A stretch of DNA of 64,000 bases from Chiloscyllium plagiosum (lineage: Eukaryota): contig NC_057758.1 in assembly GCF_004010195.1 (NCBI RefSeq), forward strand, positions 2,046,029 through 2,110,028, read 5' to 3'. Below the pieces are notes generated by a model. The model had not been told where the DNA came from and made no database searches. It saw only the letters and a program-made list of their open reading frames with translations. Both the position numbers and the translations under genes were made by a program. Every line of letters begins with the position of its first letter. Within the stretch, counting starts at the first letter, position 1. Shown piece after piece: positions 1-60,439 of the stretch.

Positions 1-190
1 TCACCTTAACCTCCTTCCACCTATCGCATTTCCAACGCCCCTCCCACACATCCCTCCTCCCTACCTTTCATCTTAGCCTGCTTGGCACACTTTCCTCATT
101 CCTGAAGATGGGCTCATGCCCGAAACGTCGATTCTCTTGTTCCTTGGATGATGCCTGATCTGCTGCGCTTTTCCAGCAACACATTTTCAA
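1..190 (+). mobile_element. Penelope-like element 3' terminal repeat (pLTR), family A, cut by window edge
   Basis: Near-identical to 10130-10320 (+) and to the reverse complement of 4098-4212. Contains a hammerhead core. The same family abuts a GIY-YIG C-terminal remnant at 4218-4345. Confidence 0.8.
102..129 (+). ncRNA. Minimal hammerhead ribozyme motif (PLE family A)
   Basis: CTGAAGA-t-GGGC(tcat)GCCC-GAAA-cg-TC. Conserved core is intact, stem II is 4 bp, stem III is a palindromic ACGT. Only about 2 bp of stem I are visible. Confidence 0.7.
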
Positions 191-997
191 CAGGAATGAG
201 AGCGTCTTTTGAGTTGTATTTGGACAGACACATGAATGAGCTGGGAGTAAATGAATACAAATTGTGAGAAAATGGGCAGCAGGAATACATCGAGGATGTG
301 GAATGGCGCAAGCTTGGATGGCTGAATAGCTGGCTCCTCCCATGTAATGTACTTTGTTCTTTCTTCTTTGTAATCAAATATCTCTTTTCAATGGTGCAAG
401 CTTTATTTGCATCATTCTCAGGCAAAGTGTCATGGTGCAGAAGATGTAAACAATCTGTGTATGAAATACTATCACCGTAACCAAGAGGGTCAGATGGACC
501 ACGCAGGGAACACGTTAGTATTGTGCGACTAATAACTGAGTGCAGCAATGGTCACCATCCCAACATTGCAGATTACTCGTTTTCTCACTGCTTTTAGTGT
601 AGCAGAAGTGCATCTTCTATTCTTCTCACACAAGCTCATTACAAATGCTGGGGACAGAATGGAACAACACATTAAAGACAGCAACCTTTCAATACCAACT
701 CATGTCTGGCTGGAACATATATTGATGCTCTATCCCACATATATTGGAGACACAGGTTTGTGTATTACTGCCAATGTAAGCTAACCAAACGGGTAGCAGA
801 AATGTGCACCATGCTTCATTGCGGTCCACCTTATTTATCTTGAGACCAGTTTTTAAAAATCCTACCAGGTAGAGTGGGAGAAGAAGAGTGCAAAGTTGGC
901 AGCATGTTTCGCCCAATGTAGATTGTGACCAGACGAATCCACAGAACTGCCGTTGTGGTCTGCCAAATGTTTCCAATAAGGTTCATGGTGAAAACTA

Positions 998-1312
998 GGT
1001 AAAAACAATAACTGCAGATGCTGGAAACCAGAGTCTAGATTAGAGTGGTGCTGGAAAAGCACAGTAGTTCAGGCAGCACCCAAGGTGCAGTAAAGTCGAC
1101 GTTTCTGGCAAAAGCCCTTCATCAGGAATACAGGCAGAGAGCCTGAAGGATGGAGAGATAAGTGAGAGGAGGGTGGGGGTCGGGAGAAAGTAGCATAGAG
1201 TACAATCGGTGAGTGGGGGAGGTGATGAAGGTGATACGTTAGGGGGGAGTGGATAGGTGGAAAGGAAGATAAGCAGGTAGGACAAGTCATGGGGACAGTG
1301 CTGAGCTGGAAA
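998..1312 (-). mobile_element. Penelope-like pLTR, family A variant
   Basis: Homologous to 9998-10354 and 23790-24128 in reverse orientation. Carries a hammerhead core. Possible degenerate TSD catggtgaa at 984-992 and 1322-1330. Confidence 0.75.
1098..1125 (-). ncRNA. Minimal hammerhead ribozyme motif (PLE family A variant)
   Basis: Minus strand reads CTGATGA-a-GGGC(tttt)GCCa-GAAA-cg-TC. The closing base pair of stem II is mutated. Confidence 0.6.
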
Positions 1313-1569
1313 CTCATGGTGCATGGTGAACCCATTGGGTAGATGGAGTGCAGCGAGATGGGCAGTTCATCCAGTGTACTCTATGCAAGTTGCATGCAAA
1401 CATGAATGAGAGGGTGAGTTTGAGTTGCATGCTCTTTGGAGAGTCTGTGTGGAGTTTTTGGTCCAAAAGTCCTGTTTCTGCACTGTACGGGTGCTATGGT
1501 TCTATGATTGCACAAGGGGTTTGACACAAACCGAACATTTCTTTGATTAAATGAAAATCTGAATGAAAC

Positions 1570-2775
1570 TTTGCTCACTGAGCTACACGGTTCGTTTTCA
1601 AAATTTTCGTCAACATTCTAGGTAACATCATCAGTGAGCCTCCAGTGAAATGATAGTGTTATGTCCCGTTTAAATTGAACGTGTTTTGGCTTCTTTGATT
1701 TGGTGATATCATTTTCGTTTTTATTCTTCAGAGGGTAGTAGATGTGGTCCAAATCGATGTGCTGGTTGATAGAGTTCCAGGTAGAATGCCATGTTTCTAG
1801 GATTTCCTGTGCGTTTTACTCTTTGCCTTGTACGAGCATGAATGTGCAGTCACAGTCAAAGTAGTGTGCCTCCTCATCTGCATATAAGGATACTTGCGAT
1901 AGTGGGACATGTCTTTTTGTCGTTGGTTGATGTTCATGAAACTAGTTTGTCCAACGCAGTGTCCGTTACCGTTCTTGCACAGCATTTTGTTAATGACGTT
2001 CACTTTGCTTGACTGTATAGGATAGTTTAGGTTAATTAGCCGCAATCTGAGTAACTTAGATGGGATATCATGATGGAAAGAGGTCTGAGTTGCTGGCGTT
2101 TATTTCCGAGATGTCTATGATATAGGGGAGAGTAATTAGGGATTCTGGGCGCCTTTTGTCTGCTTGCTTGGGTTTGTTGTTGTGAAATCGGCAGACTGTG
2201 TTCATTGTGAACCCGTTCTTTTTGAATACATTGTACAGGTAATTTGCCTCTATCCTTCGTGGTTTCTCTGTGCTGCAGTGTGTGGTAGCTTATTGAAATG
2301 ATGTTCTAATTCAGTTTCGTTTGTTCATGTTGGGATGGTTGTTTCTTTCGTTCATTATCTGGTCTGCATGTGTTTATTTCCTGTTGATGCTGATTTGTAG
2401 GCCCCCATTGACGGTTCTTTCTACTGCGACATCAAAGAATGGCAGTTTGTTTTCGTTTTCGTTCTCTTTTGTGAACTTTATGTCAGTAAGGTTATTATTG
2501 ATGGTCTTGAAGGTTTCTTCCAATTTGTTTTGTTTCGTGAATCCAAAGGTGTAATTCACATAGCGAATCCAAAGTTTGCGTTGGATGGTTGGCAGAGCCG
2601 TTCGTTCGAGTCCCTGTATTACTGCCTCTGTGAAGAAGCCTGATATCGTAGATCCCATGCGTGTTCTGTACGTTTATTTGTAGGTCTTATTATTGAAAGT
2701 GAAGTGAGTGGCAAGGCATAGGCCCATCTGCTTGACGTTGTTGTACTTGCTGATGAAGATGATGGTGTTTGCTGT
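1570..2775 (-). mobile_element. Decayed Penelope-like element: RT C-terminal half, GIY-YIG endonuclease and pLTR
   Basis: ORF 2374-2658 (MGSTISGFFTEAVIQGLE...LWIRYVNYTF...IKFTKENENENKLPFFDVAVER...INRK) matches the PLE RT pattern MGSPxS...WxRYVDD...LPFLDV...VYRK. ORF 1797-2045 (NVINKMLCKNGNGHCVGQT) matches the GIY-YIG pattern NVIYKIPC..C..YIGQT. Stops and frameshifts present. Confidence 0.9.
1601..1634 (-). ncRNA. Degenerate hammerhead motif in PLE pLTR (family D)
   Basis: Minus strand reads tca-CTGATGA-t-gttacc(tagaat)gttgac-GAAA-at-TT-tga. Stem I tca/tga is retained; the stem III palindrome has decayed. Confidence 0.55.
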
Positions 2776-2779
2776 TTAT

Positions 2780-3774: not shown

Positions 3775-4057
3775 AGCACCAACCCCTATCTCAGGGTAAC
3801 CCATCAATAATAAAATATTTCTGCTGATGGGAATTCGATTTTCTGGAAAAATAGCTGACTGGTCATTGAGTTTCCTCGTTGTCTTCTTGCTATAGTACAT
3901 TGTTTGCATTGAATGTCATCTTGAAAGGCTTTAAGTAATTAAGTACAGCTAATTCTGGGATTAATACCACATGGCCCAGGAATGTGAATTGGGCTATGGA
4001 GAATGCAGTCTTAGCCTGCCTCCCGTAGGAAATTGGGATATTCCATAAAATCTTCTA

Positions 4058-4405
4058 GGAGAAAGTGAGGACTGCAGATGCTGGAGATCCGAGCTGAAAA
4101 TGTGTTGTTGGTAAAGCGCAGCAGGTCAGGCAGCATCCAAGGAGCAGGAGAATCGACGTTTCGGGCATGAGCCCATCTTCAGGAATGAGGAAAGTGTGCC
4201 AAGCAAGCTAAGATAGAAGGACATGCAGGTCCTTGGACTCCTCCATCGCCAGAACATAACAACACGACGGCTGGAGGAAGAATGCCTCATCTTCTGCCTA
4301 GGAACCCTCCAACCACAAGGGATGAACTCAGATTTCTCCAGTTTCCTCATTTCCCCTCCCCTACCTTGTCTCAGTCCCAACCCTCGAACTCAGCACCACC
4401 TTCTT
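4058..4405. mobile_element. Penelope-like element family A: inverted pLTR (minus, 4058-4217) joined to GIY-YIG C-terminus and pLTR start (plus, 4218-4405)
   Basis: The plus ORF 4223 (QVLGLLHRQNITTRRLEEECLIFCLGTLQPQGMNSDF) resembles a PLE endonuclease C-terminus. The upstream segment is the reverse complement of about 70-190. An inverted 5' pLTR is typical of PLEs. Confidence 0.8.
4155..4182 (-). ncRNA. Minimal hammerhead ribozyme motif (PLE family A)
   Basis: Reverse complement is CTGAAGATGGGCTCATGCCCGAAACGTC, identical to 102-129. Confidence 0.7.
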
Positions 4406-4925
4406 AACGCTCTTTATTATTTCCAATGAGATCTTCTTTTCTGTAACCACTATTTAACCCAATTTGTATTTGCACAGTTTGAAATTGAGATGAGAAGTCA
4501 AGCTTTGATTTATAAACCAACTTATAATCATCAGACATTTTAATTGCTAATCCAACAGTTTTACCTGTTATTTCTTCTACATTGGTTCTCACGACTTCAA
4601 AAAGTGAACGTTTGAACTCTTCCAAAATAATTATCTCTCTTGGAGCGTCATATATTTGATTCATTTCCGATGTGCTTATTAAAATTACGTTAATTAATCC
4701 TTTCAAACTCCATGTGGGTTTTGAACAGGTACATTCCTCTCCGCTACTGGCACGAGCTTATGTGCACTTAAGATGGCTTTCTCCGCCTCCTCGCACTCCT
4801 CAGATGCCTCCTCTAATAGTGATGCAAATATCTTACTGGTTCTACTCACAAACACAGTTTGCATCAACAATACCTGCATGTTCACCGTTTCTTCATTTGT
4901 TTAGACACTTTCTCAAATTTGGCAG
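4405..4925 (-). mobile_element. Decayed gag fragment of a Gmr1-like Gypsy retrotransposon
   Basis: VLLMQTVFVSRTSKIFASLLEEASEECEEAEKAILSAHKLVP and REIIILEEFKRSL.EVVRTNVEE..GKT..LA..MSDDYKLVYKSK resemble Gmr1-type capsid motifs (LL...L.GRA......VK.AIL.AYELVPEAYRQ...LILLEEFK...AA..ADDY). Confidence 0.7.
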
Positions 4926-4942
4926 TTGATGAGGGACAGAGG

Positions 4943-8740: not shown

Positions 8741-9997
8741 TTTTTATGAGGAAATTAGACCACTATTTAAAGCGTGATACATCAAAAGTTGCTTTGGACA
8801 TATTTATAGAGTCCTCGATTGACTTATAGTTATTGATTTCGACAGATGTCCTCTGTGCCTGTAGATCTGTAACCAAAGTGATGTTGGAAGTGTCCTTCCT
8901 TAAATGCATTATTAAATCAATTTTTTAACTTAACAATGGCCCTTAGTCCAGATTTTCCACCATTTTCAATTGCACAGAGGAAGGGTTACTGCACATGAAA
9001 CGTTAACATCTTCTCACACATGCTGTCAAAGCTATGGATCATTCTTTGTGAATTATAGTAGTATTACTTGTAGTAAAGCATTCCAGTTGAGATCATTAAT
9101 CTTTGTATTGGCTTCCTACTGGTTCAATTCGAATTCCACACCTTCATTATTTGGGTCATGATGACGGTACTTAGGCACACAGTTCAGAAGTATATGCTTT
9201 TATCAGATTCAGTAACAATGATGTCAGTGAGGATACACCAGAGCAAGTAACTTACAACAGGCAATAAGTTTCTGAGAAATGCTGTTATTTGTTTTGTTAC
9301 GCTTTTCGTTGGTTTAGTTTCTAAAGCTTCTTCATTTGTATTTTCATTATTTATCCAAATCATTCGGATGAAAGGGTATCAACAATACTCCGATAATTGT
9401 AAACAGATGTTATATGTGCAGTATTCAAATTTATCGATATGTATGTAGAGATTTTAATTTTAATTCTATTTGCCAGCTATCCTGTGCTCCACGTGGTAAT
9501 TTGATTTTTTTTAACCTTTTACAATTTTTTTAGTGATAGGCTGTTTTTCACGACACTGACGACCGATGTACTTTATGCTATGACGATACTGGCTTGTGCA
9601 CGTATTGATCAGATTTGTTGAAAAATGTTTCAATTGTGAATGGATAAAAGCCTGGAAGAACTCTGAGAACTGTTAGAAATGATTGAGTTCATGTGAAGGA
9701 CGGCATATGGAAGTGTGATAGACTGCAGGTTTAAAGCTGTCCAATTTTGCAACTGTTTCGAAATGGAAGGCCAAATGGTAAACCTCCTCTGGCTTTGAGA
9801 TGGAACTGTTGGTGTTAATTACTCTTGGAGCTGAGTAACAAGAGAACTCCTCCAAAACATTGTAATGCTGATTTCACTATTTCCTGATTCCACTGCTCAA
9901 TCTGTTACATTCAGACACATTTTACTGACCAGAAATTTAGCCCGCAAGAGACTCCTAACTCGCAGGAACGGCGAGGTTCAGCAAGACACTGAAATAC

Positions 9998-10354
9998 TGA
10001 TTTCACCAGTTTCCTCATTTCCCCTCCCCCAGCCTGTCTCAGTCAAATCCATCAAATTCAGCACCGCCTTCCTAACCTGCAATCTTCTTCCCGACCTCTC
10101 CGCCCCCCCCAGTCTGACCTATCACCCTCACCTTGACCTCTTTCCACCTATCACATTTCCGACGCCCCTCCCCCAAGTCCCTCCTCCCTATCTTTTATCT
10201 TAGCCTGCTGGACCAACTTTCCTCATTCCTGAAGAAGGGCTAATGCCCGAAACGTCGATTGTCCTGTTCCCTAGATGCTGCCTGACCTGCTGCGCTTTTC
10301 CAGCAACACATTTCCATCTCTGATCTCCAGCATCTGCAGACCTCACTTTCTCCT
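9998..10354 (+). mobile_element. Solo Penelope-like pLTR (family A) with 11-bp TSD
   Basis: Flanked by direct repeat cactgaaatac (9987-9997 and 10355-10365). Contains an intact hammerhead core. Confidence 0.85.
10229..10256 (+). ncRNA. Minimal hammerhead ribozyme motif (PLE family A)
   Basis: CTGAAGA-a-GGGC(taat)GCCC-GAAA-cg-TC. The loop differs from 102-129 while the stem is conserved. Confidence 0.7.
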
Positions 10355-11714
10355 CACTGAAATACAATGCCAGGAAAAAAAACTCACTGGTTTTGAACGC
10401 AACTAATTTTAATTTGTCACGGTCGATATTAATGGTGTTTTTTTCAATGATGCCAGAAGTATTGTATGCGGTGCCATTCTTTGTATTTTGTATTATTTTG
10501 TGCAGAAACTTCATGTTGCTTCACCTCAGCTGCTGCACAAACATCGTAATTTCTGCTCTGAACCGAACCAACTTCAGGCAGCAGTTAAAGAATGCGCTTA
10601 AATATCCAGTTATTGAAATTAATCAGTAAATGGCGTTCACTAATCAATCATTTAATACAAGAGTTCCGCATTTTAATTCAAACATGCAGCATTTAAGCAG
10701 CCTATCGCTATGGTTACAGATTGATGGTAATGCTACATTGTTCAAGCGTATAAAATCCGGAGTCAGTGATAAAGACAACATTGCAATAATGCTGACTATA
10801 ATTAAATATTGTAAATAATAAAATACTGCTAATTAAAACTGCCAAACAGCAGATCTCACTACACTGCCCTTGCTTTCATCTTTGAGTTTAAAAAAACTCT
10901 AAACTCTAAACTCGATTAACCTTCCACTCATTGTCACAGCTGCACTGCAGACCTGTGTCTTCATTACACCTTTTCCCTTTTCTCCTGCCACTACCCGCAA
11001 TTTCCTTCCACACACATTCTGGTTCACGCTCTCCCTGTGAACTCTCTCAGTCTTGTCCATTCGGAATGTTTTCAATTTCTCCAGACGTCTATTTCTCTGG
11101 TCCGCTGTCTCTCTTCTGCCTTTCTCCTTTTTACGCCATCATTTTCTGCGATGTTCTCTCCCTCTAGATATCTATCACTTTCTTCCTCCCTTATGCCTTC
11201 TTTTGCATTTGCGACTTGCCTGCATTTTCTATCCATTCCGTTCCATGCTTCACTCTCTTTTTTTTTCTTTTTCCCTATCGCACTCTGTCTTCACCACTCT
11301 TTCCTTCTCTCTGTCCCTCAATTACACAGACAATTTCTTCAGAGCCATGTGGGTTGAGAATCCTGCTCTGCCATCACGAATGTTTTTCTTCAGGAGGCTA
11401 GATTCCTGTGTCGGCCGGACAGCGCCTTACTTTCCACAACACTTATTCACCCTGGTTTCGTTGAACATTCCCTTCTCTAATTTTACAGCGATTTCATCTG
11501 CCTTCCTGTGTTTGCTACCAATGTCGACAACACCACAATCTTTTAAAAAAAACATGTCAGCAATGCATTTACCAACTCAATCTTTGCATTTATAGCGATG
11601 TGCTTATCTATCTGGGCAGATATATCCTTGTGTGTCTGCTTGCATGAGATTTGTATGACTGTACGTTGGTTATTTCATATTGTCGTTTGTGTTTATAAGT
11701 CTGTTGTAGCGGTT

Positions 11715-12050
11715 TATAAAGTGAGGAGTTGGAAAGGCTGAAAAGCCAAGGTGTTTTTCCGAGGTTTCTTGGCCCGCATCTACTGAGCAAAGCCATAAAG
11801 AGAGTCTTTAAAAAGACAGGAGCAGTAAAATTTTGCACACAGGGTGATGTGTATATGGAACAAGCTCCTGCAGGAAGAGGTGGGGGCGGATACAATTGTA
11901 ATATCTAACAGGCATCTGGATGAGTATAGGTAAAAGAAGAGTTGCAACAGTTATGGTCCAAATGGTGGCAACTCGGTAAACGTCAGATTGAGGTCTCTTT
12001 TTGGTGTGGACGAGTTGAATCTAAGCGTCTATTTCCATTCTAAATGACTC
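11715..12050 (+). mobile_element. Highly decayed CR1 3' end
   Basis: ttttgcacacagggtgatgtgtatatggaacaagctcctg (FTQRVV..WN.LP motif) and a tail-like gactctatg. Confidence 0.55.
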
Positions 12051-12266
12051 TATGTCACTGCGTCTGTGTATTTCTCTCTTTGTGTGTGCATATGCATCTT
12101 TCTGTTGGTGTGTGTCTATCTGTGTGTTGCTATATGCATCTCTGGGCATGTATTTTGTGCATGTTAGTGTGCATAGCGATATCTGTATATGCCGCTGTGA
12201 CTGCAATTTTGTGATAAAGTGTTTCAGTTGTTTTTTTTTCTGTTTATCCTTTGCTACGAGAGTCAA

Positions 12267-12309
12267 TCTCTCTCTCTCTCTTGTGTGTGTGTGAGAGAGA
12301 GAGAGTGAG
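12267..12309. repeat. Compound microsatellite (CT)n(GT)n(GA)n
   Basis: Directly visible. Confidence 0.85.
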
Positions 12310-13380
12310 ATACATAGAGTGTTGAAAATGTCGGGGGCCAGCTTCATTTTGTAAGTTGGGCAGGTTGTTTGCAAAGCAGTTTAAATACAATTCCCGACAA
12401 CAGTGAATTTAGCATGAAAGACCCTCCTTCTCACTGTTTATCGTAAGTTTTAACGGCCTTCAAGGTAACTTTAACGCCAGCCTTTCGTTCTTTAATATGA
12501 TAGAGCATCCCTCTGATCACGTAGAACTATGGCAACTCACAATCACACATTTAAAAGGATACAGTTCTGGCCTCCACACTTCACTGCGCAAGCACCACTT
12601 TCATTTTGCTTTTTGTTTGATTGTTCTGCTGATGGCATCAATTGTTGTGAGTCTCTCAAATTTGGCACATCGATCAGCCAATTCTCCAGTGGGGATGTAA
12701 TACTTCTCAATCATACCGATCTATTCCCATTCAGAATGATCACCGAGTCCTCCAGTCCTCGATCAATTGATGAGGAGGTGGAAAAATTGAGAAAAGTAGA
12801 GAATGATCACAAGTGGATAAGCTGCTCCCTTGTCTTTGTTTTGCAGACTAGTGATGGAAGTGAAAAAAAAAATGTGTTTCTTGGTGTATTAAGCATCATC
12901 ACTGCACAATAGTGTAACGTGTTCTGATTCGAACGCTGATACGACAATTTTAATCACGAATAATTAGCGAGAGGCGATAAGTACAGAAGTCCCAAAAGGA
13001 AGAAATCTTAATATAATTGTTTCTTTATTTCGTAATCGATAGTTGACAGATTGAAAGAAGGTGTGACACTACAAGTAGGAATTCATCAGCAGTTGTTACT
13101 GAATGATACATTATTTTTAGAGAATTCATATTCCACCACCTGCCAGGTGGGAGTCAAAGACACCAGAACAGTTCACTGAGTTTCTGGATTAACGAGAGCC
13201 CAATATAATGATGATGACAATAAAAATTAATAATAATAATTTAAGAAAAAAGTCTATCGATTACACCACAAGAGCCAATCGACTTCACCTTTAGTATCAC
13301 CCAGCAGTCAAATTAAGGTTTTTTTTTTGCAAGTTCACTCGTGAGTTGTGTGTATTACTCATTAAACAGCGAGATAAACC

Positions 13381-13430: not shown

Positions 13431-14029
13431 AATGTGCCAAGGGAAAAACAAAACGACAGAACGTGCAGGAGAGAAAATTCCCGAGACAGCAGATAGAGGG
13501 AGAGAGAGACTTACTATCGTTTGCTTTTTGCTGATGGCCTTGGATGTTGTTCAGTAAACGTCAGCTCGAAGATTCTTCTGCCTTCTTCCTACGCAAAGGT
13601 CCTTGTTCCTTACATTCATGTATGCACGCTTGCAAAAATGGAACAGTTTCACAGTTGGCTCTCTTGAGTGGGGCAGGTTATAGCGATGGATCTTCTTTCA
13701 GTGGCAGGGGCAAGAAGCCGGTAAGGGCATCAGAATGCAGTGTCGATGAAAAAAGACATTCCACAGATTAGCTCTCTCTAATACCTCAACATCAGTGTCT
13801 TGTATAATCTTCCTTTCCTGCTCATTCATGGACCGTGGTGGCGCTTTCCAGTCCGGTATTAATCTCCCATGGCAAGCTACCCCTTGTCAGAATGTGGGCT
13901 TTGGGAAAGCGTGCCATTTTGAACTGCTGCAGCCACTCTCATGCCGGCAGGGCCATAATAAACCATCAGGGAGTGAATTGCAAGACTTTCACCCAGTGAC
14001 ACTGAAGGGATAACCAATATATAAGGTAT

Positions 14030-14717
14030 AGGTTTGCTCGCTGAGCTGTAGGTTTGATATCCAGAAGTTTCATTACCTAGCTAGGTAACATCATTAGTGG
14101 CGACCTCCAAGGGAAGCGAAGCTGTTGTCTCCTGCTTTCTATTTATATGTTTGTCTTGGATTGGGTTCCTGGGGTTTGTGGTGATGTCATTTCCTGTTCG
14201 TTTTCTGAGGGGTTGATCGATGGTGTTTGTTTATGGCGTTGTGGTTGGAGTGCCAGGCCTCTAGGAATTCTCTTGCATGTCTTTGCTTAGCCTGTCCCAG
14301 GATAAATGTGTTGTCCCAGTTCATCCATGTGTAGGGATACGAGGGAGAGAGGGTCGTGTCTTTTTCAGACAGACAGTTGCGCCTACTCTGAGCCGAAAGA
14401 GGGAAAGAATCAAACTGAACACAGAAGAAAGGAAATCCCTAGAAAACCTCAAAAAAGACAAAAACATTGTTATATTACCTGCAGACAAGGGTCGGTTCAC
14501 AGTCATCCTGAACAGAGGGGACGATATAGAGAAAGTCAAAAAACTACTCGCAGACACCAACACCTATCAACAGGTGGCGCTAGACCCGACCCCACAAATC
14601 GGAAACAAAATTACATATCTCCTAAGAAAATTACACAATTCCGGACAATTAAACAAGACGGGATTCCAGAAAATGCAACCGGATGGAACCAACACCCCAC
14701 AATTCTACGAACTACCA
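14030..14717. mobile_element. Penelope-like element: inverted GIY-YIG C-terminus and pLTR (minus, ~14030-14330) joined to RT N-terminal part (plus, ~14330-14717)
   Basis: Plus ORF has KNIVILPADKGRFTVILNR...LLADTNTYQQV..DPTP...TPQFYELP (PLE motifs PADKG and PxFYGLP). Minus strand has WDNTFILGQAKQRHAREFLEAWHS. Confidence 0.9.
14064..14097 (-). ncRNA. Hammerhead motif with a core mutation (PLE family D)
   Basis: Minus strand reads cca-CTaATGA-t-gttaccta(gc)taggtaat-GAAA-ct-TC-tgg. Stems I and II are intact; G5 is mutated, so it is probably inactive. Confidence 0.6.
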
Positions 14718-16674: not shown

Positions 16675-16796
16675 TCACCTGACGAAGGGCGAGCACTATG
16701 AAAGATTATTATTTCAAATAAACCTGTTTGACTCTAACGTGGTATCGTGTGAGATATGATTTTTGTCCATCTCAGTACAACATCGGCACTTCAACG
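16675..16796 (+). mobile_element. Degenerate PLE family B pLTR end
   Basis: cacCTGACGA...GAAA...aaataaacctgtttgactctaacgtggt, homologous to 30988-31101. Confidence 0.55.
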
Positions 16797-21290: not shown

Positions 21291-21721
21291 GCTTTGCTCT
21301 ATTGGTCGACGAAATTTCTGAAGAAGGGGCAGCGCACTCAAAATGTTACCTCTGGTTTCTCCACAGATGTTGTCATGCATCCTGATGCTTACTGGTATGT
21401 ACTGTTTTTCGTTTCCAGAGATTGGGCGATTCTCAACGTTGCCATTACCTTGTTATGTCGATCAGCTGATGGCATTTCTGCGACTAGACACTGCCCTCTG
21501 CATCTAGCTTCTAAACACAACAACATGTCGATACCTTTCTGGTATTTAGAAAACACTTCATGTGTAAGCAGTGCAGCTCTTTGTGTCAATTGCATTCGCT
21601 GTTTACGATGTTGTATCATTTTCATGGTGGAATCCAGGCTCTATTCGAGTTACTGATGGATTACAACCTCCATTCTCTTCCCACGTGGTCACTACCTTCC
21701 AGAAGCTTCCTGTCGTTTCAA

Positions 21722-30566: not shown

Positions 30567-30782
30567 AAAGTTGATTAAAAGAATTTGGAAGTGGAGAGCT
30601 GTAAACACCATTGCTAGCATATCGTGGAAGGAGGCAAATAAAGTTCCCAACAAAATACCATGGCTCCTTTTTTCTACCGCTCAAAAGTAATTATCCTCAC
30701 ATTTCCCAAGACCATCCTCTGTCAATTACTTTCTCACCCCCACACACTGAAACTGTGTTAACTCTCAACATCTTGTCAAGCT

Positions 30783-31101
30783 GACACCAATTGTTACAGT
30801 TAACCCGGGAATGTAACTTTTAAAAAAGCTTTGTGATTTACATGTGAAAGAAGTGAAAATATCATGGTCATTCCAACAGATGAGAGATTCAACCAACAAT
30901 CAAGGTATTTTTAAATGTATAATTTCAGTTACATTACACTAAATTTTTGTAATGAATTCTGTGTCTTACAATTGGGTCCTCCACAACCACCTGATGAAGG
31001 AGCGGCATTCCGAAAGCTAGTGCTTCCAATTAAACCTGTTACTATAACCTGGTGTTGTGTGATTTTTAACTTTGTACACCCCAGTCCAACACCGGCATCT
31101 C
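30783..31101 (+). mobile_element. Penelope-like pLTR, family B
   Basis: Ends ...aaacctgttactataacctggtgttgtgtgatttttaactttgtacaccccagtccaacaccggcatctc. Homologs at 16675 and 58370-58545. Carries a hammerhead motif. Confidence 0.7.
30988..31022 (+). ncRNA. Minimal hammerhead ribozyme motif (PLE family B), all core nucleotides intact
   Basis: cac-CTGATGA-a-GGAG(cggca)TTCC-GAAA-gc-TA-gtg. Stem I cac/gtg, 4-bp stem II, palindromic AGCT stem III. Predicted cleavage after 31019. Confidence 0.78.
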
Positions 31102-31689
31102 CGACCAAAATAAAAATAACGTTCGATAATTTTGTCAAAAAACACGGGAACGTTGAAAATTTGCGGTCAATTGAAATTGGGCTTTATAAAGATAAGTTTT
31201 CCCCATGGATCCTGGTGACTCGCCCTTGACAGCTGCGATATTAAAGAGGTAGGTTTGCAAATGTGCATGAGTTGAGTTTGCAAATTATAAATGTGCAGAT
31301 GTCGTTTTATACAAGTGTTGATAAAAAGGAAGGCTGTGACAATTTGGAGCCAGAGATTGACAGAACATGAAATTAATAAACCCCAATAATTTTGAAATTC
31401 CTGGACTGTATTCACGAGTGTTTTGAGAAATATTGCGACGGGGAAGGAACCTCGTAGAAATTTATAAAATTCGAACAGGACTGGATAGTATAAGCAGGAT
31501 AGGAATCTCACGAAAAGTAGCGATTCCAGCCGGTCACTGTCTAAGCATCTAGTGTTGGATGGAAATGAGGAAAACGTCTTCAGCTCGGGAATGTTGAGTC
31601 TGTGGACTTGTTTTCAAGAGAAAGAGTTTGAGACTAAAATACAGACTGTTTTCAGGATGGAGTTACATAAAGTTGCAAGGACTTAAGGG

Positions 31690-31832
31690 AGTCGAGAGTG
31701 TGGTGCTGGAAAAGCACATCAGGTCAGGCAGCATCTGAGAAGCAGGATAATCGATGTCTTGGGCATAAGCCTTTCAACATGAATCTGTCGAAGGAAATAT
31801 GCCCGAAATGGCGATTCTCCTGCTTCCCAGAT
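31690..31832. mobile_element. Head-to-head inverted pair of decayed family A pLTR ends
   Basis: atctgagaagcaggataatcgat...gggcata and tatgccc...cgattctcctgcttcccagat are mutually reverse complementary. Confidence 0.65.
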
Positions 31833-32114
31833 AAAATAAAAATAACGTTCGATGATAGTCCACGTGAGAGCTGGATGCAACCTTTTTGCAGTGACAACTA
31901 GATCCAATCACACTTCAGTGTGAGGTTGAACAAGTATACTCCCATCCTTCACATGTTTATTCCAGACTGAAACATCGACATGGAGAAACTTAGAGCAAGA
32001 CGAGACCAATCGGTCCTTCAAGCCAGCTCCACCATCCAGCTTGATCATGGTTAATCATTCAATCAACCTTCAGTTTCAGCTTTATCTTTATAGGCTTTCA
32101 CCCCTTCAGTCCAA

Positions 32115-32272
32115 GGAGATAGTGAGGACTGCACAGGTTGGAGATCAGAGTCGAAAGTGTGAGGCTGAAAAAACACCACATGGCAGGCAGCATCTGAGAA
32201 GCAGGAGAATCGATGTCTTGGGCATAAGCCTTTCATCATGAATCTGTCGAAGGAAATATGCCCGAAATGGCG
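32115..32272. mobile_element. Second copy of the same inverted family A pLTR junction
   Basis: Shares the junction catgaatctgtcgaaggaaatatgcccgaaatggcg with 31778-31813. Confidence 0.65.
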
Positions 32273-35300: not shown

Positions 35301-35447
35301 GGATGTGAAAGCTTTGGAAAGGCTGCAGAGGAGATTTACTAGGATGTTGCCTGGTATGGAAGGAATGTCTTACGAGGAAAGACTAGGGGTCTTGAGGCTG
35401 TTCTCGTTAGTGAGAAGAAGGTTGAGAGGTGACTCAATAGAGACATA
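32353..35447 (+). mobile_element. CR1 LINE, 5' part of host copy (ORF1 esterase, APE, RT), interrupted at 35447
   Basis: YCLPGARV...HIGSN...[33 protein letters not shown]; ends ...RRRLRGDSIET. Confidence 0.93.
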
Positions 35448-44807: not shown

Positions 44808-46159
44808 TTACACGTGTGTTGTTCGTCCCTCGAACTCTAGAAGCATTCTTTGACTTTCTCTTTGTTGCATATCACCTGCTGATTGTAAAAGCATCTGATG
44901 ATTTATTTGGGTTCCTTCCACAAGGGATGTCATCAGTAGGCTCATTACCCATTTTAGGACATTGAACCCTACCACTGGACCCACTAATATCAATAATCCA
45001 TAGATAGCTATATTGACTAACCACCTTCCCCAACCAGTCAATCCCCAATTCACCCATTTCCTTTTTCGTTCCAGTACCGATTACCGGCCTCCCTTACCTT
45101 GATGATTTTGTCTCACACATATTTGCAGATATCAGTAATGTTAAAAGAGACCTCAGGTATGTACGTACAACATTCCTCTCCAATTAGTGCACAGGTACCA
45201 CCCTTCTCTGCTAGAGTATAGTCCAGAGCCATCCTGTTGTGAAGATTCGTTAGCCTAGTGGCAATCATTTTGGTCGTTATGGCTGCAACTTGGGATTGGG
45301 TTTCAGCCAACGCATCAGCAGTATTGTGGGCCAACTCTTCCAGGGAAGCCACTAACTTTTGTATTTCTACTCCTGCTCGAGTGGTCCCATACATAGGTAT
45401 CAAAGTCCAGAGGAGGCGGTCTCGTTCAGTTACTTTCCGAGTTACTCGCATTCCTCCCTGTTTATTCCGAAGTATTTTTGGGCCTCTCTTTAACAGCCTC
45501 AAGTAGGGAATTATATATGCGAGGTAGCAGCAGCCACTCCAGCCTTTCTGGCTTTGAGGCAGTATTTGATCAACATCATAACATGCATGCATTCCTATAC
45601 ATTCAGTCACGCGAATGTATTTCGCCCCGGGAATAAATGGATAGGCCTTCAGGCCGCATACCCAATATGTTCCGTTTAATATTTGGTAAAAGGTTGTGGC
45701 TGAGGCTTGGCTGGTGTAGACACAAGATGATTTTCCTAATTGGAAGGGTGCGGTATCATTCTGATTACATCATTCTGATTACAGAAACAAGTGGTATTTA
45801 CTGCTCCTTTCGGGGGGAAACTCTAAGGCCATCAATAGCACCCAGAGTTTTCGGGACTGGTCGAGGGAACCAACCCGCAGTTATAATTACCCCTTTCAAA
45901 TCTCCAAGTCGTATCATTTGAGCACGAGTCAAATTGTTGTACATCGTACACTTCTCTTTTGGTAAGTGGTATTACCGTGAGAGGAATTCCGGATTTCCCA
46001 TGGTGTGGGATCTCAGCACATACCGAACAGTCGGTATGTCCCTTTAGTTTAGCATAATTCTGACATAAAGCGGTAAAATGATTTTTCCCACACCCCCCCA
46101 CCCCCCACCCCGGCAGCTGGCGCCAATATTATCGTGACAATATAAAATTGACCATTCAT
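44808..46159 (-). pseudogene. env: ERV gamma-type envelope (SU and TM), frameshifted
   Basis: Signal-like MNGQFYIVTIILAPAAG; SU CxxC motif TDCSVC; furin-like RVTR; immunosuppressive-domain-like LHNRMALDYTLAEKGGT; CX6CC (CALIGEECC); membrane anchor WLVNIAIYGLLILVGPVVGFNVL. Confidence 0.92.
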
Positions 46160-46278
46160 TTCAGCTCACAACCCTATCTGTCTATTCCATAACACTTTAA
46201 ATACCAGGGAGGAAGGAGTCCATGCAACACTTACAATTGTTTTGGGATACAGTTTTTTAACCAATCCTTAATAGTCTC

Positions 46279-47380
46279 TTATCTCAGTCCATTCTTTTTG
46301 CTCAGCTTGATTTTCAGAGGGTTGTCTGTAGGATGTGCGTGCCATTCTGCCGGAGGGGAAGGAGCGTCCACCGGGCCCTTAGCACAAGTGTGATGACTCC
46401 GCCCTTTTTCAGCAGTTCGGACGGCTGTTTCAGCAGTCAGTAGGAACGGTCCCTCCCAGCTTGGGTGCAGATTAGTATCTTTCCAGGTCTTTATCAGGAC
46501 CCAATCACCCGTTTGTATCCGATGTACTGCGAACTCAAGTGGAGGTGTCTGGGTCAACAGACCCTTCTTTCGAAGGACATACAAAGAAGAGCCGAGCGCC
46601 ACAATATAGTTCTTTAAAAACTTATCATTGAACTCTACAGTTAGTAATTCCCCCCTTCCATACAAGAAAGGTAATCCAAACATCATCTCATAAGGAGATA
46701 GGCCTATATCACGTCTAGGCGCAGTCCTAATGCGTACTAACGCGATAGGTAAACATTTTATCCATGGTAGTCGAGTATCTAGGACTAGATTAGACAATTG
46801 CTTCTTTAAGGTTTGATTCATTAGTTCCACCCGTCCAGAGGAAGGCAGATGACAAGGGGTGTGGAATTCCCAAGAGATTTCTAATCCCGCCATTACCTCT
46901 TGTAGGATCTTAGAGGTAAAATAGCTACCTTGGTCTGAATCTATACTTTCCACCAGTCCATATCCAGGAATTATATGTTCTAAAAGAGTTTTCACTACTC
47001 CCTTCGAGGTAGCTGAGGACATTGGAAATGCCTCCACCCACCCAGTTCGGTGATCCATTAGGCGTAATAAGTACTTTTGTTTCCCTAGTGGGGGTAATTC
47101 TATGTAATCTACCTGTATTCTTTGAAAAGGTGTTACCCCAGGGTTTCTTCCACCTCTTACACCCCCCCCCCCCGTTACTTTCTTATTAATCTTTTGGCAA
47201 GTCGGGCATCCTGCTCATACCTGCTTGGCTAATGTGTATATCCCTTTACATCCGTACTTCCTTAACACTGTGTCACACATAGCTTGGGAGCACCAATGAC
47301 TGCCTTGGTGCAAGGTGGTTATGATGTTTCTCATGACTGGTTTACTTAATAACTCCCTTCCATCCGGAAAATACATATTC
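46279..47380 (-). pseudogene. pol: ERV pol, integrase region (class I, gamma/epsilon-like)
   Basis: HHCC (HQGSH...CPTC, with an in-frame stop just before the Cys pair); D,D,E triad in IQVDY, IDSDQG and GRVELMN; LSPYEMMFG; GPY/F module GDWVLIK...WEGPF. Confidence 0.95.
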
Positions 47381-53135: not shown

Positions 53136-53139
53136 GATT

Positions 53140-53405: not shown

Positions 53406-53419
53406 TTGTGCAATCTATG

Positions 53420-54370: not shown

Positions 54371-54870
54371 NNNNNNNNNNNNNNNNNNNNNNNNNNNNNN
54401 NNNNNNNNNNNNNNNNNNNNNNNNNNNNNNNNNNNNNNNNNNNNNNNNNNNNNNNNNNNNNNNNNNNNNNNNNNNNNNNNNNNNNNNNNNNNNNNNNNNN
54501 NNNNNNNNNNNNNNNNNNNNNNNNNNNNNNNNNNNNNNNNNNNNNNNNNNNNNNNNNNNNNNNNNNNNNNNNNNNNNNNNNNNNNNNNNNNNNNNNNNNN
54601 NNNNNNNNNNNNNNNNNNNNNNNNNNNNNNNNNNNNNNNNNNNNNNNNNNNNNNNNNNNNNNNNNNNNNNNNNNNNNNNNNNNNNNNNNNNNNNNNNNNN
54701 NNNNNNNNNNNNNNNNNNNNNNNNNNNNNNNNNNNNNNNNNNNNNNNNNNNNNNNNNNNNNNNNNNNNNNNNNNNNNNNNNNNNNNNNNNNNNNNNNNNN
54801 NNNNNNNNNNNNNNNNNNNNNNNNNNNNNNNNNNNNNNNNNNNNNNNNNNNNNNNNNNNNNNNNNNNNNN
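54371..54870. other. Assembly gap (500 N)
   Basis: Run of N. The round length suggests a placeholder size. Confidence 1.
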
Positions 54871-54963
54871 TATGCTGAACGTTGAGACTTCGCTGTCTAA
54901 TATTCTGTCAATTCTACGAACTCCTTGTTTAGTACTCATTGAAATTTGAGCAAATTATTTGCC

Positions 54964-54995
<32 letters not shown>
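54964..54995. repeat. (TAT)n microsatellite
   Basis: Directly visible. Confidence 0.9.
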
Positions 54996-54997
<2 letters not shown>

Positions 54998-55605
54998 AAA
55001 TCTGCTATGTTTAATGACACCCTCCACTATAACGATAGCCACTTCCTCCACTGGAAAAGTAAAAGTCTCAATTTCTGTCATGATGTAAGAGTATTTTCAG
55101 TTAACCAAAGGAAGTTAGACTGAATGACTATCTATGTCTGGATTAAAAAAAAAACTTTCTACCCATACCCCCAGAAGTTACCAAACGAGAAGGTAATAAA
55201 TATCTTGTTGAAACAATTTGTCGAATTCAAACAATACTAACACATCAAATCCCAACTACGGAATCGCAGAATATTATCTTCTGTATTTGTTATCATGAAA
55301 CCACGAACAATTAAGATTGACACTCGATTATTGATCAAAAGAATCAATTATCGATTGAATTGTATTAAGGATTGCTTTCTCTTAAATGATGCAAAACTAA
55401 AATGGCGTAATCAATATCAAGTCCATGTTAAAAAGACTTATACATGAAATATGCTGTATTAAGTGATTTGATATTCCAGATATATATCTGACTACAACTA
55501 AAGACACGATACTGCATCATTTCAAAGTCACATGGGATGAATTTTAATAAACAGATAATAAGGGAATCAATTTTTGAAATTAGCAGTGTCTGCTTTCATT
55601 AAAAA

Positions 55606-57075: not shown

Positions 57076-57740
57076 AGACACTTGCAATCAAACTAAATAA
57101 CATTTATCTCTGTAGTAACATGATGGCTTTATAACTAATTATCTGGTCTCTACATTTGTTTGAAAGCAATCATCTATTGCAAACTCCTGACATTTTATGG
57201 CCAAAAAACGATCCTGGAAGACAATATTGAATCACCCTGTCCAAAAAATGCAGTTCACAGAGCCACGTTTCCACTCGTGACTTTCTGAAGCATGACTGAG
57301 AACATAGCTCATGATGACTTAATAAAATTCGCTTAGAGCTGAACTTCTAATTGAATGTTAGTATTTAATTACATTACATTTGCTTTCTTTATATGAAATA
57401 ATGCGGGGTTTGAGGAACAACATCATGACTGTTAGAATGACCGTTGCAAATATTTCAAAACCAGTCACAAAAAATGTGTGCAGTATTGATATCGAGATGG
57501 TTTCACAGAATTATTACTTATTAGCGTAAGCTCTGACGTTCGGGTCGAAAACGTTAATCACGTTTTGCTAGAAGTGTTCAATATTCATGAGGTGGTAACA
57601 GCTCACGACCATTGTAAAATTTCAGTGAATATCCTGAAATCTGACATTATAATGAACAGATTGGTTTTGATAAGGCACAAGGTGTTCTGTGGACATACTA
57701 AACTGTTGTGGTTCTGTTCGCCGAGCTGGAAATGTTTTTT

Positions 57741-57780
57741 GCAAACTTTTCGTCCCCTGTCTCGGTGACATCCTCAGTGC
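57741..57780 (-). ncRNA. Hammerhead motif, left arm (PLE family C)
   Basis: Minus strand reads gca-CTGAGGA-t-gtcacc(gagaca)ggggac-GAAA-ag-TT-tgc. Core is intact; the palindromic CG loop is changed to AG. Confidence 0.65.
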
Positions 57781-57874
57781 TTGGGAGCCTCCTGTGAAGC
57801 GCTTCTGTGGTGTTTCCTCCGGCATTTAAATGCCGGAGGAAACACCACAGAAGCGCTTCACAGGAGGCTCCCAA

Positions 57875-57914
57875 GCACTGAGGATGTCACCTAGACAGGG
57901 GACGAAGCGTTTGC
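57875..57914 (+). ncRNA. Hammerhead motif, right arm (PLE family C)
   Basis: gca-CTGAGGA-t-gtcacct(agac)aggggac-GAAg-cg-TT-tgc. Stem I gca/tgc; A15.1 is changed to G. Confidence 0.65.
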
Positions 57915-58369
57915 AACAAAACTTTCCAGCTCGGCGAACAGAACCACAACAACGAGCACCCGAGCTACAAATCTTCACCCAAACTTTGAACATACTAAAC
58001 TTTCCCAGGACAACCTCTCATGGTATTGGAGGGATGAAAGGTCTAGTGCCAGAAAACGACATTTTCCTTTCTTGGGCTGGGAAGATAGACGTCTCGCGCT
58101 GTGCCTTGTCCCTTATTCTTTGACTGTAATCACAAATGTATCTCAATTTTGTATGAAATATTACTTTTATGCTTGAAGACATGTCCTCACTTCCAAAATG
58201 TGGTTTGATCTTTTTGGATGAGATAAAGATTGTGATTATTTTAGAAGCCAAAGAGTACGGACATATCGTAAGACGAACGGCTGTGCATAACCAATTGCTG
58301 TAAAACTGTCATTTGTTTGCAATGTCGACGGTGTGGACTTCTGGGATGTAAACTGGCTGTGTATCTTGT

Positions 58370-58545
58370 CCTCCATGTTATAGTGCAACAGGTTTATTTC
58401 GAAGCAGTAACTTTCGAAACGCTGCTCAACACTTGATAAAGGAGCTTCAAAAGCTAGTGCTTCCAAATGTACCTGTTGGACGGTAACCTGGTGTTGTGGT
58501 TCGTAACTTTATCCACTCCATTCCAACATTTGCGCACCGAAATCA
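58370..58545. mobile_element. Head-to-head inverted pair of decayed family B pLTR ends
   Basis: caacaggtttatttcgaagcagtaacttt versus aaagctagtgcttccaaatgtacctgttg. Both are homologous to 31010-31060. Confidence 0.65.
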
Positions 58546-58559
58546 AATATTGCACTCAT

Positions 58560-59870
58560 TCACAGGAAGAGTACTAAACTATCTAATTTTCTGTATTTAT
58601 TGTGACATCAAGGACAGATGTTCTGAGCCATTTTGCTCATACTGGACTTTTTCAGGATATAATGATCGGATTGGATGGAAAGGAAAAGATAGATGTTGTA
58701 TACTTCGACTTCCAAAATGCGTTTGATAAGGTGCCAAGTAAAAGACTCCTGAATAACCTATGGATGTATCGAGTTGCAGGAAATTTACTAACATGAATAG
58801 AAGATTGGTTAACCAATATATAGCAGAGAATTCGGATAAATGCATGTTTCTCTAGTGGAGATCATTGATGACCAGGGTGGCACAGCGGTCAGTGTTGGGA
58901 CTGCAACTGTTCATGATATATTCAAATGATTTGGAAGAGGTAACCAATTGTAACCATTCAAGTTTGTAGCTGACACTAAATTGAGTGAAAAGGAAAACAG
59001 TGCAGACGATGTGGAGGGTCTATAGAGAAATTTAGACAGGTTACGTGAGTGGACAAGGCTCTGGCAGATGGGTACATTACAATAAAATGTGAGGTTATCC
59101 AATTTGGAAGTAATAATTGAAGGTTATTTCCATAATGAAAGATTGCAGCATGTTTTTGTGTTCAGGGACTTACAAGTGTTTGTACACGAATCACTAAAAG
59201 TTGATTTGCAGGTGTAACACATAACAATGCAAACGGAAACGGAGTTTTAGTTTGCATTGTTAGAAAGGTTGAATTTAAGATCGGGACACTCTGCTGCAAT
59301 TCAGTAAGGTTTTGGTGAGACTACACCTGGAGAATTGTGCGCAGTTCTGGTCTCCTCACTTGACGAATGATATATTAGCTTTTGAGGCAGTGCATAGAAG
59401 GTTCACCTGGTTGTTTCTGGAGATGAGGGGTTAACCCTGATAAGATAGTTTGATCCACCTTCGGCTGTACTCATTAGAATTTAGATGAATGTGAGGCGCT
59501 CTTACAGAAACATTAAGATTATTAAAGAGATAGATAAGATAGAGGTGGACAAGTTGTTAAACGCTGGTGGGTGCGACTAGAATTAGGTGACAGGACCTCA
59601 AAGTTTAGAGGTGTATATTTAAAACAGAGAATAGGATGAACTGATTTTCTGTGAGCTGAGCGAATCTACGGAATGTCTGCTCAAGGAAGTAGCAGAGGCA
59701 TCTTCATTACATATATTCAATACACAGTTGAATAGATGTTTGCATAATAGGTGAATTAAGGGTTTGGGGTATTGCAGTAGGAGGAGTTGAATGAATGTAT
59801 AGATCAGCCGTGATATTAATGAATGGAGGAACAGGCTGCACGGGCCAAATGGATTATTACTGCTTCTATT
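58560..59870 (+). mobile_element. Decayed CR1 (RT to 3' end)
   Basis: IDVVYFDFQNAFDKVP (ORF 58602) and gcagttctggtctcctcac (QFWSP). Confidence 0.8.
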
Positions 59871-60439
59871 GTTACGAAATCTCTTGCTGTACGATTGGTT
59901 GCTTGTGTTGTCCCTGAGATTATCATGAGGGGCATACATATGGATTGTTAAGTGTTTCAGCGGCTTCTTAATGGTATATGGAGTGACTCAGTGTTGAGAC
60001 AAAACTAAGCCTTCCGTCGTCGGACAATTTTCTTATTCCATATATCAATAAAATAAATTTCTCTTGAATCGGCTGCAGTGCATTTTGATTCTTTCACGGA
60101 AGTATACATTTAGGTCTGACAAGCAAAATATTTGAGAAGTTTGTGAAATACTTTTAATCGATCTCTTTCACGAGTGCACCGGCCAGTGGGATACTATCAG
60201 TCATATTTATGCATAAATGGATAATTGTCGAAGGAAGTTCGGTATTGAAGAGATAATAATAATTGCCGATGAATTCTGAGGAAAGATCATTGGACCCGAA
60301 ATGTGAGCACTAATTTCTTTTTCCATGTGTGACCAGACATTTTGAGCTTTTGGAGTAACTTCTGCTTTTATTTTGGTCGATGAGAAATCTTTTTTTTTCA
60401 AATAATCATTTAACAGCAGTATAGGTCACAAACCTACAA

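What the first reader, a model, noticed from the sequence alone, without database searches (positions are those of the whole stretch)
102..60305. At least four distinct families of minimal hammerhead ribozyme motifs across the window, sharing a 1-nt core insertion and a palindromic stem III
Seen: family A at 102-129(+), 1098-1125(-), 4155-4182(-) and 10229-10256(+) with stem II GGGC/GCCC and GAAACGTC. Family B at 30988-31022(+) with GAAAGCTA. Family C at 57741-57780(-) and 57875-57914(+). Family D at 1601-1634(-) and 14064-14097(-). More decayed cores lie near 16679, 21318, 31785, 32243, 58432 and 60276. Stem II sequences differ between families but stay paired, and family A loops vary (tcat, taat, tttt) while the stem is kept. 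All have one extra nucleotide between CUGAnGA and stem II, and stem III reduced to a self-complementary ACGU or AGCU (decayed in some copies). Established: such stem-III-less hammerheads are described in PLEs and cleave as dimers. Inference: these short shark repeats are a very abundant ribozyme-bearing class, and sense-oriented intronic copies could cut host pre-mRNAs in pairs.
Basis: partly seen in the sequence, partly recalled or inferred. Interest (0 to 1): 0.7.

Follow-up and report, generated by a model that had tools for sequence, protein, structure and literature searches.

The report
Penelope retroelement stubs carrying minimal hammerheads
These motifs are real copies of a tiny predicted self-cutting RNA (a minimal hammerhead) already known from Penelope-like jumping genes, present over 100,000 times in this genome on short element stubs that were likely copied from the uncut front end of the element's RNA, so they are unlikely to cut host gene transcripts.

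Summary
The motifs are real (7 descriptor hits against 0.35 in shuffles) and belong to a published class: minimal hammerheads in the pLTRs of Penelope-like elements (Cervera and De la Pena 2014), for which the 1-nt insertion and palindromic stem III are already described. A and B lie downstream of Neptune-type ORF ends; C and D are two subfamilies of a Poseidon-type element; a fourth type (E) explains the hits at 21318 and 60276. Only 4 of the 9 listed motifs keep core, stem II and palindrome. Exact family-A and family-B motifs occur 88,166 and 13,290 times in the genome. Pairing covaries between lineages; individual copies decay about like their flanks. Family-A 5' junctions are 28 times commoner 4 nt before the core (6,522) than at the predicted cut (230), and family B shows a TATA box and an extra G at its equivalent point, so stubs were likely copied from capped, uncut RNA. 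Host pre-mRNA cutting is unsupported: no host exon was found, intact same-strand partners lie a median 26 kb apart, and RNA reads cross the site. The scan has reported this repeatedly, in this genome and others.

The parts
1..189 (+). Family A (Neptune-type) pLTR stub, running off the window start; intact minimal hammerhead core 102-129, predicted cut after 129
   Evidence: 93% to a longer copy
998..1288 (-). Family A stub with tail; hammerhead 1125-1098 with the G10.1-C11.1 pair broken
1552..2775 (-). Decayed 5'-truncated Poseidon-type PLE (RT end, thumb, GIY-YIG remains, pLTR); family D hammerhead 1634-1601, partly decayed
   Evidence: tblastn E 2e-52 to an RT piece, 1e-21 to a thumb/endonuclease piece
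4057..4408 (-). Family A stub 4220-4057 with intact hammerhead 4182-4155, joined to an inverted piece of the same element's endonuclease C-terminus (4217-4408, + strand)
   Evidence: tblastn E 1e-17
9987..10365 (+). Family A insertion 9999-10354: last ORF codons, 3' UTR, intact hammerhead 10229-10256 and tail, between 11-bp direct repeats at 9987 and 10355
14029..14365 (-). Poseidon-type remnant (endonuclease C-terminus plus pLTR); family D hammerhead 14097-14064 with G5 changed to A
16675..16792 (+). Decayed family B stub
21316..21372 (+). Decayed family E stub (a lineage that shares downstream sequence with A)
30782..31115 (+). Family B (Neptune-type) 3' UTR, pLTR and tail; near-intact hammerhead 30988-31022, predicted cut after 31019; this copy has lost the upstream TATA box
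31699..31832 (-). Decayed family A fold-back stub that starts at the ATTC junction point
32114..32272 (-). Decayed family A fold-back stub, a 91% duplicate of the one 459 nt to the left
57693..58001 (.). Family C (Poseidon-type, related to D): spacer-less inverted pair with 124-nt arms, one damaged hammerhead in each arm, a tail on the right arm only, 12-bp direct repeats at 57693 and 57990
58373..58529 (+). Decayed family B fold-back pair
60274..60369 (+). Decayed family E stub

Best explanation
The motifs are minimal type I hammerheads carried on dispersed, 5'-truncated terminal-repeat stubs of Neptune- and Poseidon-type Penelope-like retroelements, and the stubs were likely reverse-transcribed from capped, uncut element RNA that is predicted to start 4-8 nt before the ribozyme core. 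Likely cycle: a promoter in the pLTR starts the RNA just before stem I (inferred); the element's protein nicks DNA and starts reverse transcription internally at one of two points about 90 and 125 nt downstream (two 3' end classes seen here; mechanism shown for the anole element); it reads back through the uncut hammerhead and often runs off the RNA's 5' end, leaving a 90-130 nt stub, frequently with a fold-back inverted copy (junctions seen, steps inferred). The hammerhead is kept by selection in the few source elements, where it likely cuts slowly, as a dimer and with protein help (inferred from published assays). Inserted copies then decay about like their flanks and are likely inert.
For: Element identity: long family-A copies carry RT thumb, CX4CX2C linker and GIY-YIG (Pfam PF01541 E 9e-4, under its cut-off) about 180 nt upstream of the motif; family B lies 500-900 nt downstream of a C-X4-C-X2-C linker and GIY-YIG end in 13 of 25 loci chosen by ORF sequence; family D follows RT (PF00078 E 1e-7) and an endonuclease in which I saw no linker. 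PLE hallmarks: two 3' end classes 30-40 nt apart and divergent inverted partners in 74 of 178 A copies, as described in PMC8557442 and PMC11167929. Structure kept between lineages, in copies collected without a pairing requirement: 2.1-1.1 is C-G (A, B), A-U (D), U-A (E); 10.4-11.4 is C-G, G-C, A-U, U-A; G10.1-C11.1 is the majority pair in all four; within D, 2.3-1.3 is U-A in 47 and C-G in 14 of 68. Junctions: 48 of 170 A copies start at -5..0 and 5 at the cut; genome-wide 6,522 against 230 with equally strict flank filters. B has TATAAA about 30 nt upstream in 14 of 19 longer copies and G before the junction in 93 of the first 100 of 1,386. RNA reads cross the predicted cut with no pile-up of ends.
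Against: No full-length element and no cap or start-site data were obtained, so the start site is inferred. 72 of the 100 listed B junctions and 52 of the 100 listed A junctions have flanks that match a fold-back partner, which could supply the G; without them the excess is 21 G to 7 A for B (p 4e-4) but only 27 to 21 for A (p 0.03) (hand counts; test). A has no clear TATA box, and D shows no strong pile-up in 32 copies. The pile-up could instead mark an endonuclease cut in existing pLTR DNA (the anole enzyme prefers ATT) or a stall at RNA structure. Junctions at the cut are 1.6-3.8 times the two control positions after normalising, so a small share of cut templates is not excluded. Core positions are slightly less mutated than flanks in young copies (6 of 410 against 50 of 1,432), though not significantly within base classes, and the sample was chosen by alignments that cover the core. 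No cleavage was measured.
Confidence: 0.88

Rival explanations
1. The stubs are an independent non-autonomous class (a ribozyme SINE or non-LTR retrozyme) that is transcribed from its own copies, self-cleaves, circularises and is mobilised by PLE protein.
For: Very high copy number, fixed-looking ends and target-site-like direct repeats; retrozymes are reported as non-autonomous pLTR derivatives in vertebrates, including one chondrichthyan (bioRxiv 10.64898/2026.07.22.740005).
Against: Copies form a nested series reaching into the ORF with the same 3' ends; stubs that start at the junction lack the upstream TATA box; no two intact same-strand motifs lie within 1 kb in 1.064 Mb (45 motifs, 34 gaps, smallest 1,099 nt), whereas retrozymes are defined as tandem units; junctions are not mainly at the cut site.
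Confidence: 0.06
2. Sense-oriented intronic copies pair through their 4-nt palindromes and cut host pre-mRNA.
For: Intact motifs are common (24 of 41 young A copies); stem II is predicted to form in a stub with probability 0.99; A-like sequence is present in polyA RNA on both strands (2,378 reads); retrozymes are under-represented in Xenopus introns (preprint).
Against: No host exon was found by Pfam in 115 of 130 non-repeat window ORFs; unique DNA at 10405-12900 has almost no RNA reads; the only intact same-strand, same-palindrome pair in the window is 10,127 nt apart and the median gap in the sample is about 26 kb; the intermolecular helix is worth about -3.1 kcal/mol and stem I is not predicted to form in the stub; ACGU and AGCU motifs cannot pair with each other; the C pair is locked in a -240 kcal/mol hairpin; published activity is low even for adjacent dimers and needed protein in the anole element.
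Confidence: 0.04
3. Within the PLE the motif is kept mainly as a structural or protein-binding element or as part of the promoter; cutting is negligible even in source elements.
For: Most copies were made by reading through the site; hammerhead mutants do not affect insertion in vitro and no RNA-seq ends map to the site in the anole; Naiad PLEs spread without canonical hammerheads; majority stem I of family A has only 2 standard pairs plus U-U.
Against: All catalytic positions, a permitted base at 17 (C, A or U) and the CpGs in the core are kept in four lineages while position 7 and loop 2 vary; the anole motif does cut with protein and responds to C3/G8 mutation and rescue.
Confidence: 0.2

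Closest known systems
[quoted passage not shown]
   Same: Type I core, no helix III, one unpaired base between 9 and 10.1, G10.1-C11.1, palindromic 15.2/16.2, short helix I, several families per genome, mostly single dispersed copies, some close pairs on opposite strands.
   Different: Copy number: at least 101,000 exact motifs for two families here against about 4,000 in coelacanth and 9,000 in Xenopus there. Stem II of family A is 4 pairs, shorter than the 7-8 of Schistosoma. Sharks are not named in the parts read; the supplements may list them.
Poseidon element of the green anole (PAc), Frangieh et al. 2024 (PMC11167929; parts 1-2 of 4 read)
   Same: Two 3' end points that define a tail; uncut RNA as template; no RNA ends at the cut site.
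   Different: No protein or activity was tested here; A and B are Neptune-type; a pile-up of 5' junctions just before stem I with an extra G is not mentioned in the parts read.
Complex PLE insertions with inverted 5'-truncated copy and 30-40 bp tail, Craig et al. 2021 (PMC8557442; passages only)
   Same: Strong 5' truncation, adjacent inverted copy, optional tail, Neptune CX2-5CxxC linker.
   Different: Here most copies are so short that only the hammerhead-bearing end remains.
Non-LTR retrozymes (bioRxiv 10.64898/2026.07.22.740005; parts 1 and 3 of 5 and passages read, supplements closed)
   Same: Type I hammerheads derived from PLE pLTRs, non-coding.
   Different: Retrozymes are tandem units with at least two consecutive hammerheads; these are solitary or inverted.

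Membership tests
PLE minimal hammerhead (Cervera and De la Pena 2014) | CUGAnGA and GAAA boxes with a UH site directly after a 2-nt 15.2/16.2 insert | tested here: met
   kept in 4 of 9 listed window copies and in the majority sequence of A, B and D
PLE minimal hammerhead (Cervera and De la Pena 2014) | One unpaired base between A9 and G10.1; G10.1-C11.1 pair | tested here: met
   78 hits with 1 nt against 1 and 3 with 0 or 2 nt; G-C is the majority pair in A, B, D, E
PLE minimal hammerhead (Cervera and De la Pena 2014) | Self-complementary 15.1-16.1 tetramer | tested here: met
   152 of 212 descriptor hits although not required by the descriptor; in E mostly decayed to TG or CA
PLE minimal hammerhead (Cervera and De la Pena 2014) | Covarying helices I and II between families | tested here: met
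   (script counts anchored on each family's reference); four lineages only, no R-scape statistic
PLE minimal hammerhead (Cervera and De la Pena 2014) | Self-cleavage as a dimer | not testable with these tools
   needs an assay; RNA reads show no pile-up of ends, in a library poorly suited to the question
Endonuclease-positive PLE | RT followed by a C-terminal GIY-YIG endonuclease upstream of the pLTR | tested here: met
   D: PF00078 plus endonuclease remains; A: thumb, linker and PF01541 at E 9e-4, under cut-off; B: linker and endonuclease motifs read by eye
Endonuclease-positive PLE | Optional 30-40 bp tail and adjacent inverted truncated copy | tested here: met
Endonuclease-positive PLE | Full-length ORF between two pLTRs | tested here: inconclusive
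   no full-length copy among the loci fetched; several long A copies end at assembly gaps, none continues past the tail
Neptune clade (A, B, probably E) | CX2-5CxxC linker between RT and endonuclease | tested here: met
   A; B; E not linked to an ORF; no RT tree was built
Penelope/Poseidon clade (C, D) | No linker motif before GIY-YIG | tested here: inconclusive
   none seen in decayed translations; no RT tree was built
Non-LTR retrozyme | Head-to-tail units with at least two consecutive complete hammerheads | tested here: not met
   smallest gap between intact same-strand motifs 1,099 nt in 1.064 Mb; the rest of the genome was not screened for arrays
Rfam hammerhead families | Match to a covariance model | tested here: not met
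   no hammerhead hit at E up to 10

The most novel reading that the evidence does not exclude
In these Neptune elements the hammerhead is the capped first 30-40 nt of the RNA. Tens of thousands of stubs record reverse transcription running off that capped end and copying the cap as G, with at most 1-2% made from cut RNA. Cleavage would then act as a protein-gated decapping switch on the element's own message rather than as a step in making the template.
Probability: 0.5. Interest if true: 0.5.

Novelty: new member of a known kind. Interest (0 to 1): 0.27.

Why it matters
The motif class is published, so the finding as written is ordinary. What is useful is scale: with over 100,000 copies, junction positions can be counted, and they give in vivo genomic support for the in vitro result that PLEs copy uncut RNA, plus a testable position for the RNA start right in front of the ribozyme. 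The role of PLE hammerheads is an open question (PMC8557442). If host pre-mRNA cutting were real it would matter a great deal, but nothing found here supports it.

Tried and rejected
Rfam scan: no hammerhead; its best hit (mir-5856, 54 bits, under the gathering score) is the family C palindrome. Pfam GIY-YIG search of the genome: 1 weak match of 150 scored candidates, uninformative. Cleavage footprint: 230 junctions at the cut against 90 and 218 at two control positions; of 30 inspected, 20 are fold-back junctions sharing 1-2 bases with the partner, 3 are intact copies with one extra base, 7 are other joins, so inconclusive. Structure-pair count on the 12-motif MAFFT alignment gave 20% paired, below shuffles; the alignment is out of register between families and my structure string was misplaced, so I discarded it and counted pairs per family by script. 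Copy-level selection on the core: not significant within base classes (p 0.25-0.46). Run search: no RNA holder listed; run X6 laid no reads. Transcription of the middle and right of the window remains untested. Full-length elements: none found. Intronic strand bias: not testable without gene models. Literature searches for PLE start sites and cap-derived G and for intronic hammerheads listed nothing specific; I saw only listings for these. That reverse transcriptases can copy a cap as G, the TATA and initiator consensus, and the G5/G12 catalytic roles are recalled, not from a call.
Full report
Observation. All listed motifs are at the stated coordinates. A hammerhead descriptor with one inserted base finds 7 sites in the window against 0.35 on average in 200 dinucleotide shuffles, none of which reached 7; the strict version finds 4 against 0. 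Read base by base, 4 of the 9 listed motifs keep core, stem II and palindrome (102, 4182, 10229, 30991). The copy at 1125 has lost G10.1-C11.1, 14097 has G5 to A, 57878 has A15.1 to G, 57777 has lost the palindrome, and 1634 has a stem II mismatch. C and D are 69-75% alike and are one motif type. The decayed hits at 21318 and 60276 belong to a further type, E. Rfam has no hammerhead match here.

Abundance. The genome has 3.56 Gb. The exact family-A 28-mer occurs 88,166 times, a family-B 35-mer 13,290 times and a 32-mer from the A downstream region 185,911 times; the reversed-pattern control was 0 each time.

What carries the motifs. Long A copies show the end of an RT thumb, a CX4CX2C linker and a GIY-YIG domain, then about 180 nt of UTR and the motif (PF01541 E 9e-4, under cut-off). 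Of 25 loci found with the B ORF end, 13 have the B motif 500-900 nt downstream, and several show the linker and endonuclease motifs. The linker is the Neptune/Nematis mark (PMC8557442 passages). D follows RT (PF00078 E 1e-7) and an endonuclease with no linker seen; the window's copy at 1552-2775 still holds these remains. PLE hallmarks are present: two 3' end classes 30-40 nt apart in A and B, divergent inverted partners in 74 of 178 A copies in 1.064 Mb of contiguous sequence, and direct repeats of 11 and 12 bp round two window insertions. No full-length element was recovered.

Structure. In the contiguous sample 78 hits have the 1-nt insertion, 1 has none and 3 have two; among 212 distinct hits in all loci, 152 have the palindrome and 176 have at least 2 stem I pairs, neither required by the descriptor (the copies are related, so this amounts to four lineages). 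With copies collected by similarity alone, pairs swap between lineages: 2.1-1.1 C-G, C-G, A-U, U-A and 10.4-11.4 C-G, G-C, A-U, U-A for A, B, D, E; 15.2/16.2 is CG in A and D and GC in B. Within D, 2.3-1.3 is U-A in 47 and C-G in 14 of 68 copies. Within A, 10.2-11.2 is A-U in only 4 of 94. In A the common variants fall at position 7, loop 2 and flanks. Per copy, core positions differ from the majority in 34 of 928 cells against 191 of 3,266 in flanks, not significant within base classes; G12, in a CpG, is changed in 23 of 94; 32 of 94 copies are fully intact. Selection therefore acted on source elements, with little sign of it on copies. One alignment-based pair count went against pairing but was out of register and is discarded.

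How the stubs were made. With C3 as +1, 48 of 170 gap-free A copies start at -5..0, 37 at +1..+10 and 5 at +29, the base after the predicted cut. Genome-wide, with three non-matching flank bases required, 6,522 junctions lie at the A of ATTC and 230 at the cut, under filters of equal strictness; controls at +26 and +32 gave 90 and 218 under a looser filter. Normalised, these are 34,784, 1,227, 320 and 775. Of 30 cut-site loci inspected, 20 are fold-back joins and 3 are false hits, so a cleavage footprint is inconclusive and at most 1-2% of copies. After earlier notes suggested a TATA box and an extra G, I tested both. In B, TATAAA lies about 30 nt before ACAAT in 14 of 19 longer copies, and 1,386 junctions sit at that A, with G before it in 93 of the first 100. 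Leaving out 72 whose flank matches a fold-back partner, it is 21 G to 7 A (p 4e-4); for A, leaving out 52, it is 27 to 21 (p 0.03) (hand counts; test). D gave no clear pile-up in 32 copies. The simplest reading is run-off from a capped, uncut RNA that begins just before stem I. This agrees with the anole element, where uncut RNA is the dominant template, the hammerhead cuts only with protein, and internal starts make the tail (PMC11167929, parts 1-2). The start site remains inferred.

Host pre-mRNA cutting. Pfam found no host-gene domain in 115 of 130 non-repeat window ORFs; 15 were not scanned, 11 of them in a proviral remnant. Among 44 of 175 flanking ORFs scanned, the one clear hit is a single-exon 7-transmembrane receptor 15 kb past the window end. 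Short exons or a long intron could be missed. In one polyA single-cell run, of which about 2% was read, 2,378 reads lay almost wholly on the repeat at 9900-10404, only 81 of them at 99% or better, so they come mainly from other loci; no place showed a pile-up of ends, depth across the site was 664 before and 808 after, and unique DNA to 12900 was nearly empty. This library is a weak test. Among 45 intact motifs in the sample, same-strand same-palindrome neighbours are 1,099 nt apart at least and about 26 kb at the median; in the window the one such pair is 10,127 nt apart. The dimer helix is worth about -3.1 kcal/mol, stem I is not predicted in the A stub, and the C pair is buried in a long hairpin. 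Published dimers cut weakly (PMC4209133), and 8 of 9 Xenopus retrozyme dimers showed no product (preprint). I put host cutting at about 4%.

Comparison and novelty. Cervera and De la Pena 2014 (parts 1-2 of 4 read) describe the motif, the inserted base, the palindrome, several families per genome, single dispersed copies and opposite-strand pairs. Sharks are not named in those parts; the supplements, unread, may cover them. A 2026 preprint (parts 1 and 3 of 5 and passages; supplements closed) includes one chondrichthyan for tandem retrozymes. Searches listed nothing on the start-site pile-up, but I saw only listings and the library lacks most subscription papers. The scan holds 769 findings with these words in at least 36 genomes, including this genome. 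Verdict: new members of a known kind, interest 0.27; the junction statistics are the part worth following.

Noticed in passing
window 45113-47214 (-): Remnant of an endogenous retrovirus: env-like (PF00429, E 5e-7) and integrase (PF00665, E 1e-12) reading frames. Observed only.
   Followed up: no
L053:5223-6191 (+), 15 kb past the window end: Uninterrupted 323-codon frame for a rhodopsin-family 7-transmembrane receptor (PF00001, E 5e-21); its 5' UTR exons are unknown and could lie towards the window.
   Followed up: partly
window 4057-4080 (-) and other family A tails: The A tail often ends in a pyrimidine run followed by CTAG (8 of 75 tails continue to the AG), which resembles a 3' splice site; it could mark a PLE 5' UTR intron or be used by host transcripts.
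   Followed up: no
family B tails, e.g. L297:2151 onward: The long B tail ends at or just after an ATG in 6 of 26 copies, a candidate ORF start downstream of the predicted cut.
   Followed up: no
window 32964-35453 and 35729-38233; also 26195-27642: Long LINE copies with RT and AP-endonuclease frames in opposite orientations, 71-83% complementary.
   Followed up: no
C49 region about 149 and 173 kb past the window end (region positions 413337 and 436952): Two old A copies lack the whole hammerhead through a clean deletion between two GAT triplets.
   Followed up: no
G000:C16:42817618-42817933 and C5:58609948-58610357: Tandem arrays of a 42-47 nt piece of the A downstream region without the core: minisatellites born from the pLTR.
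   Followed up: no
window 54371-54870: 500-base run of N, next to a low-complexity stretch with long open frames on both strands.
   Followed up: no
window 60106-60236 and 60982-61110: A 70% direct repeat next to the E stub, not identified.
   Followed up: no
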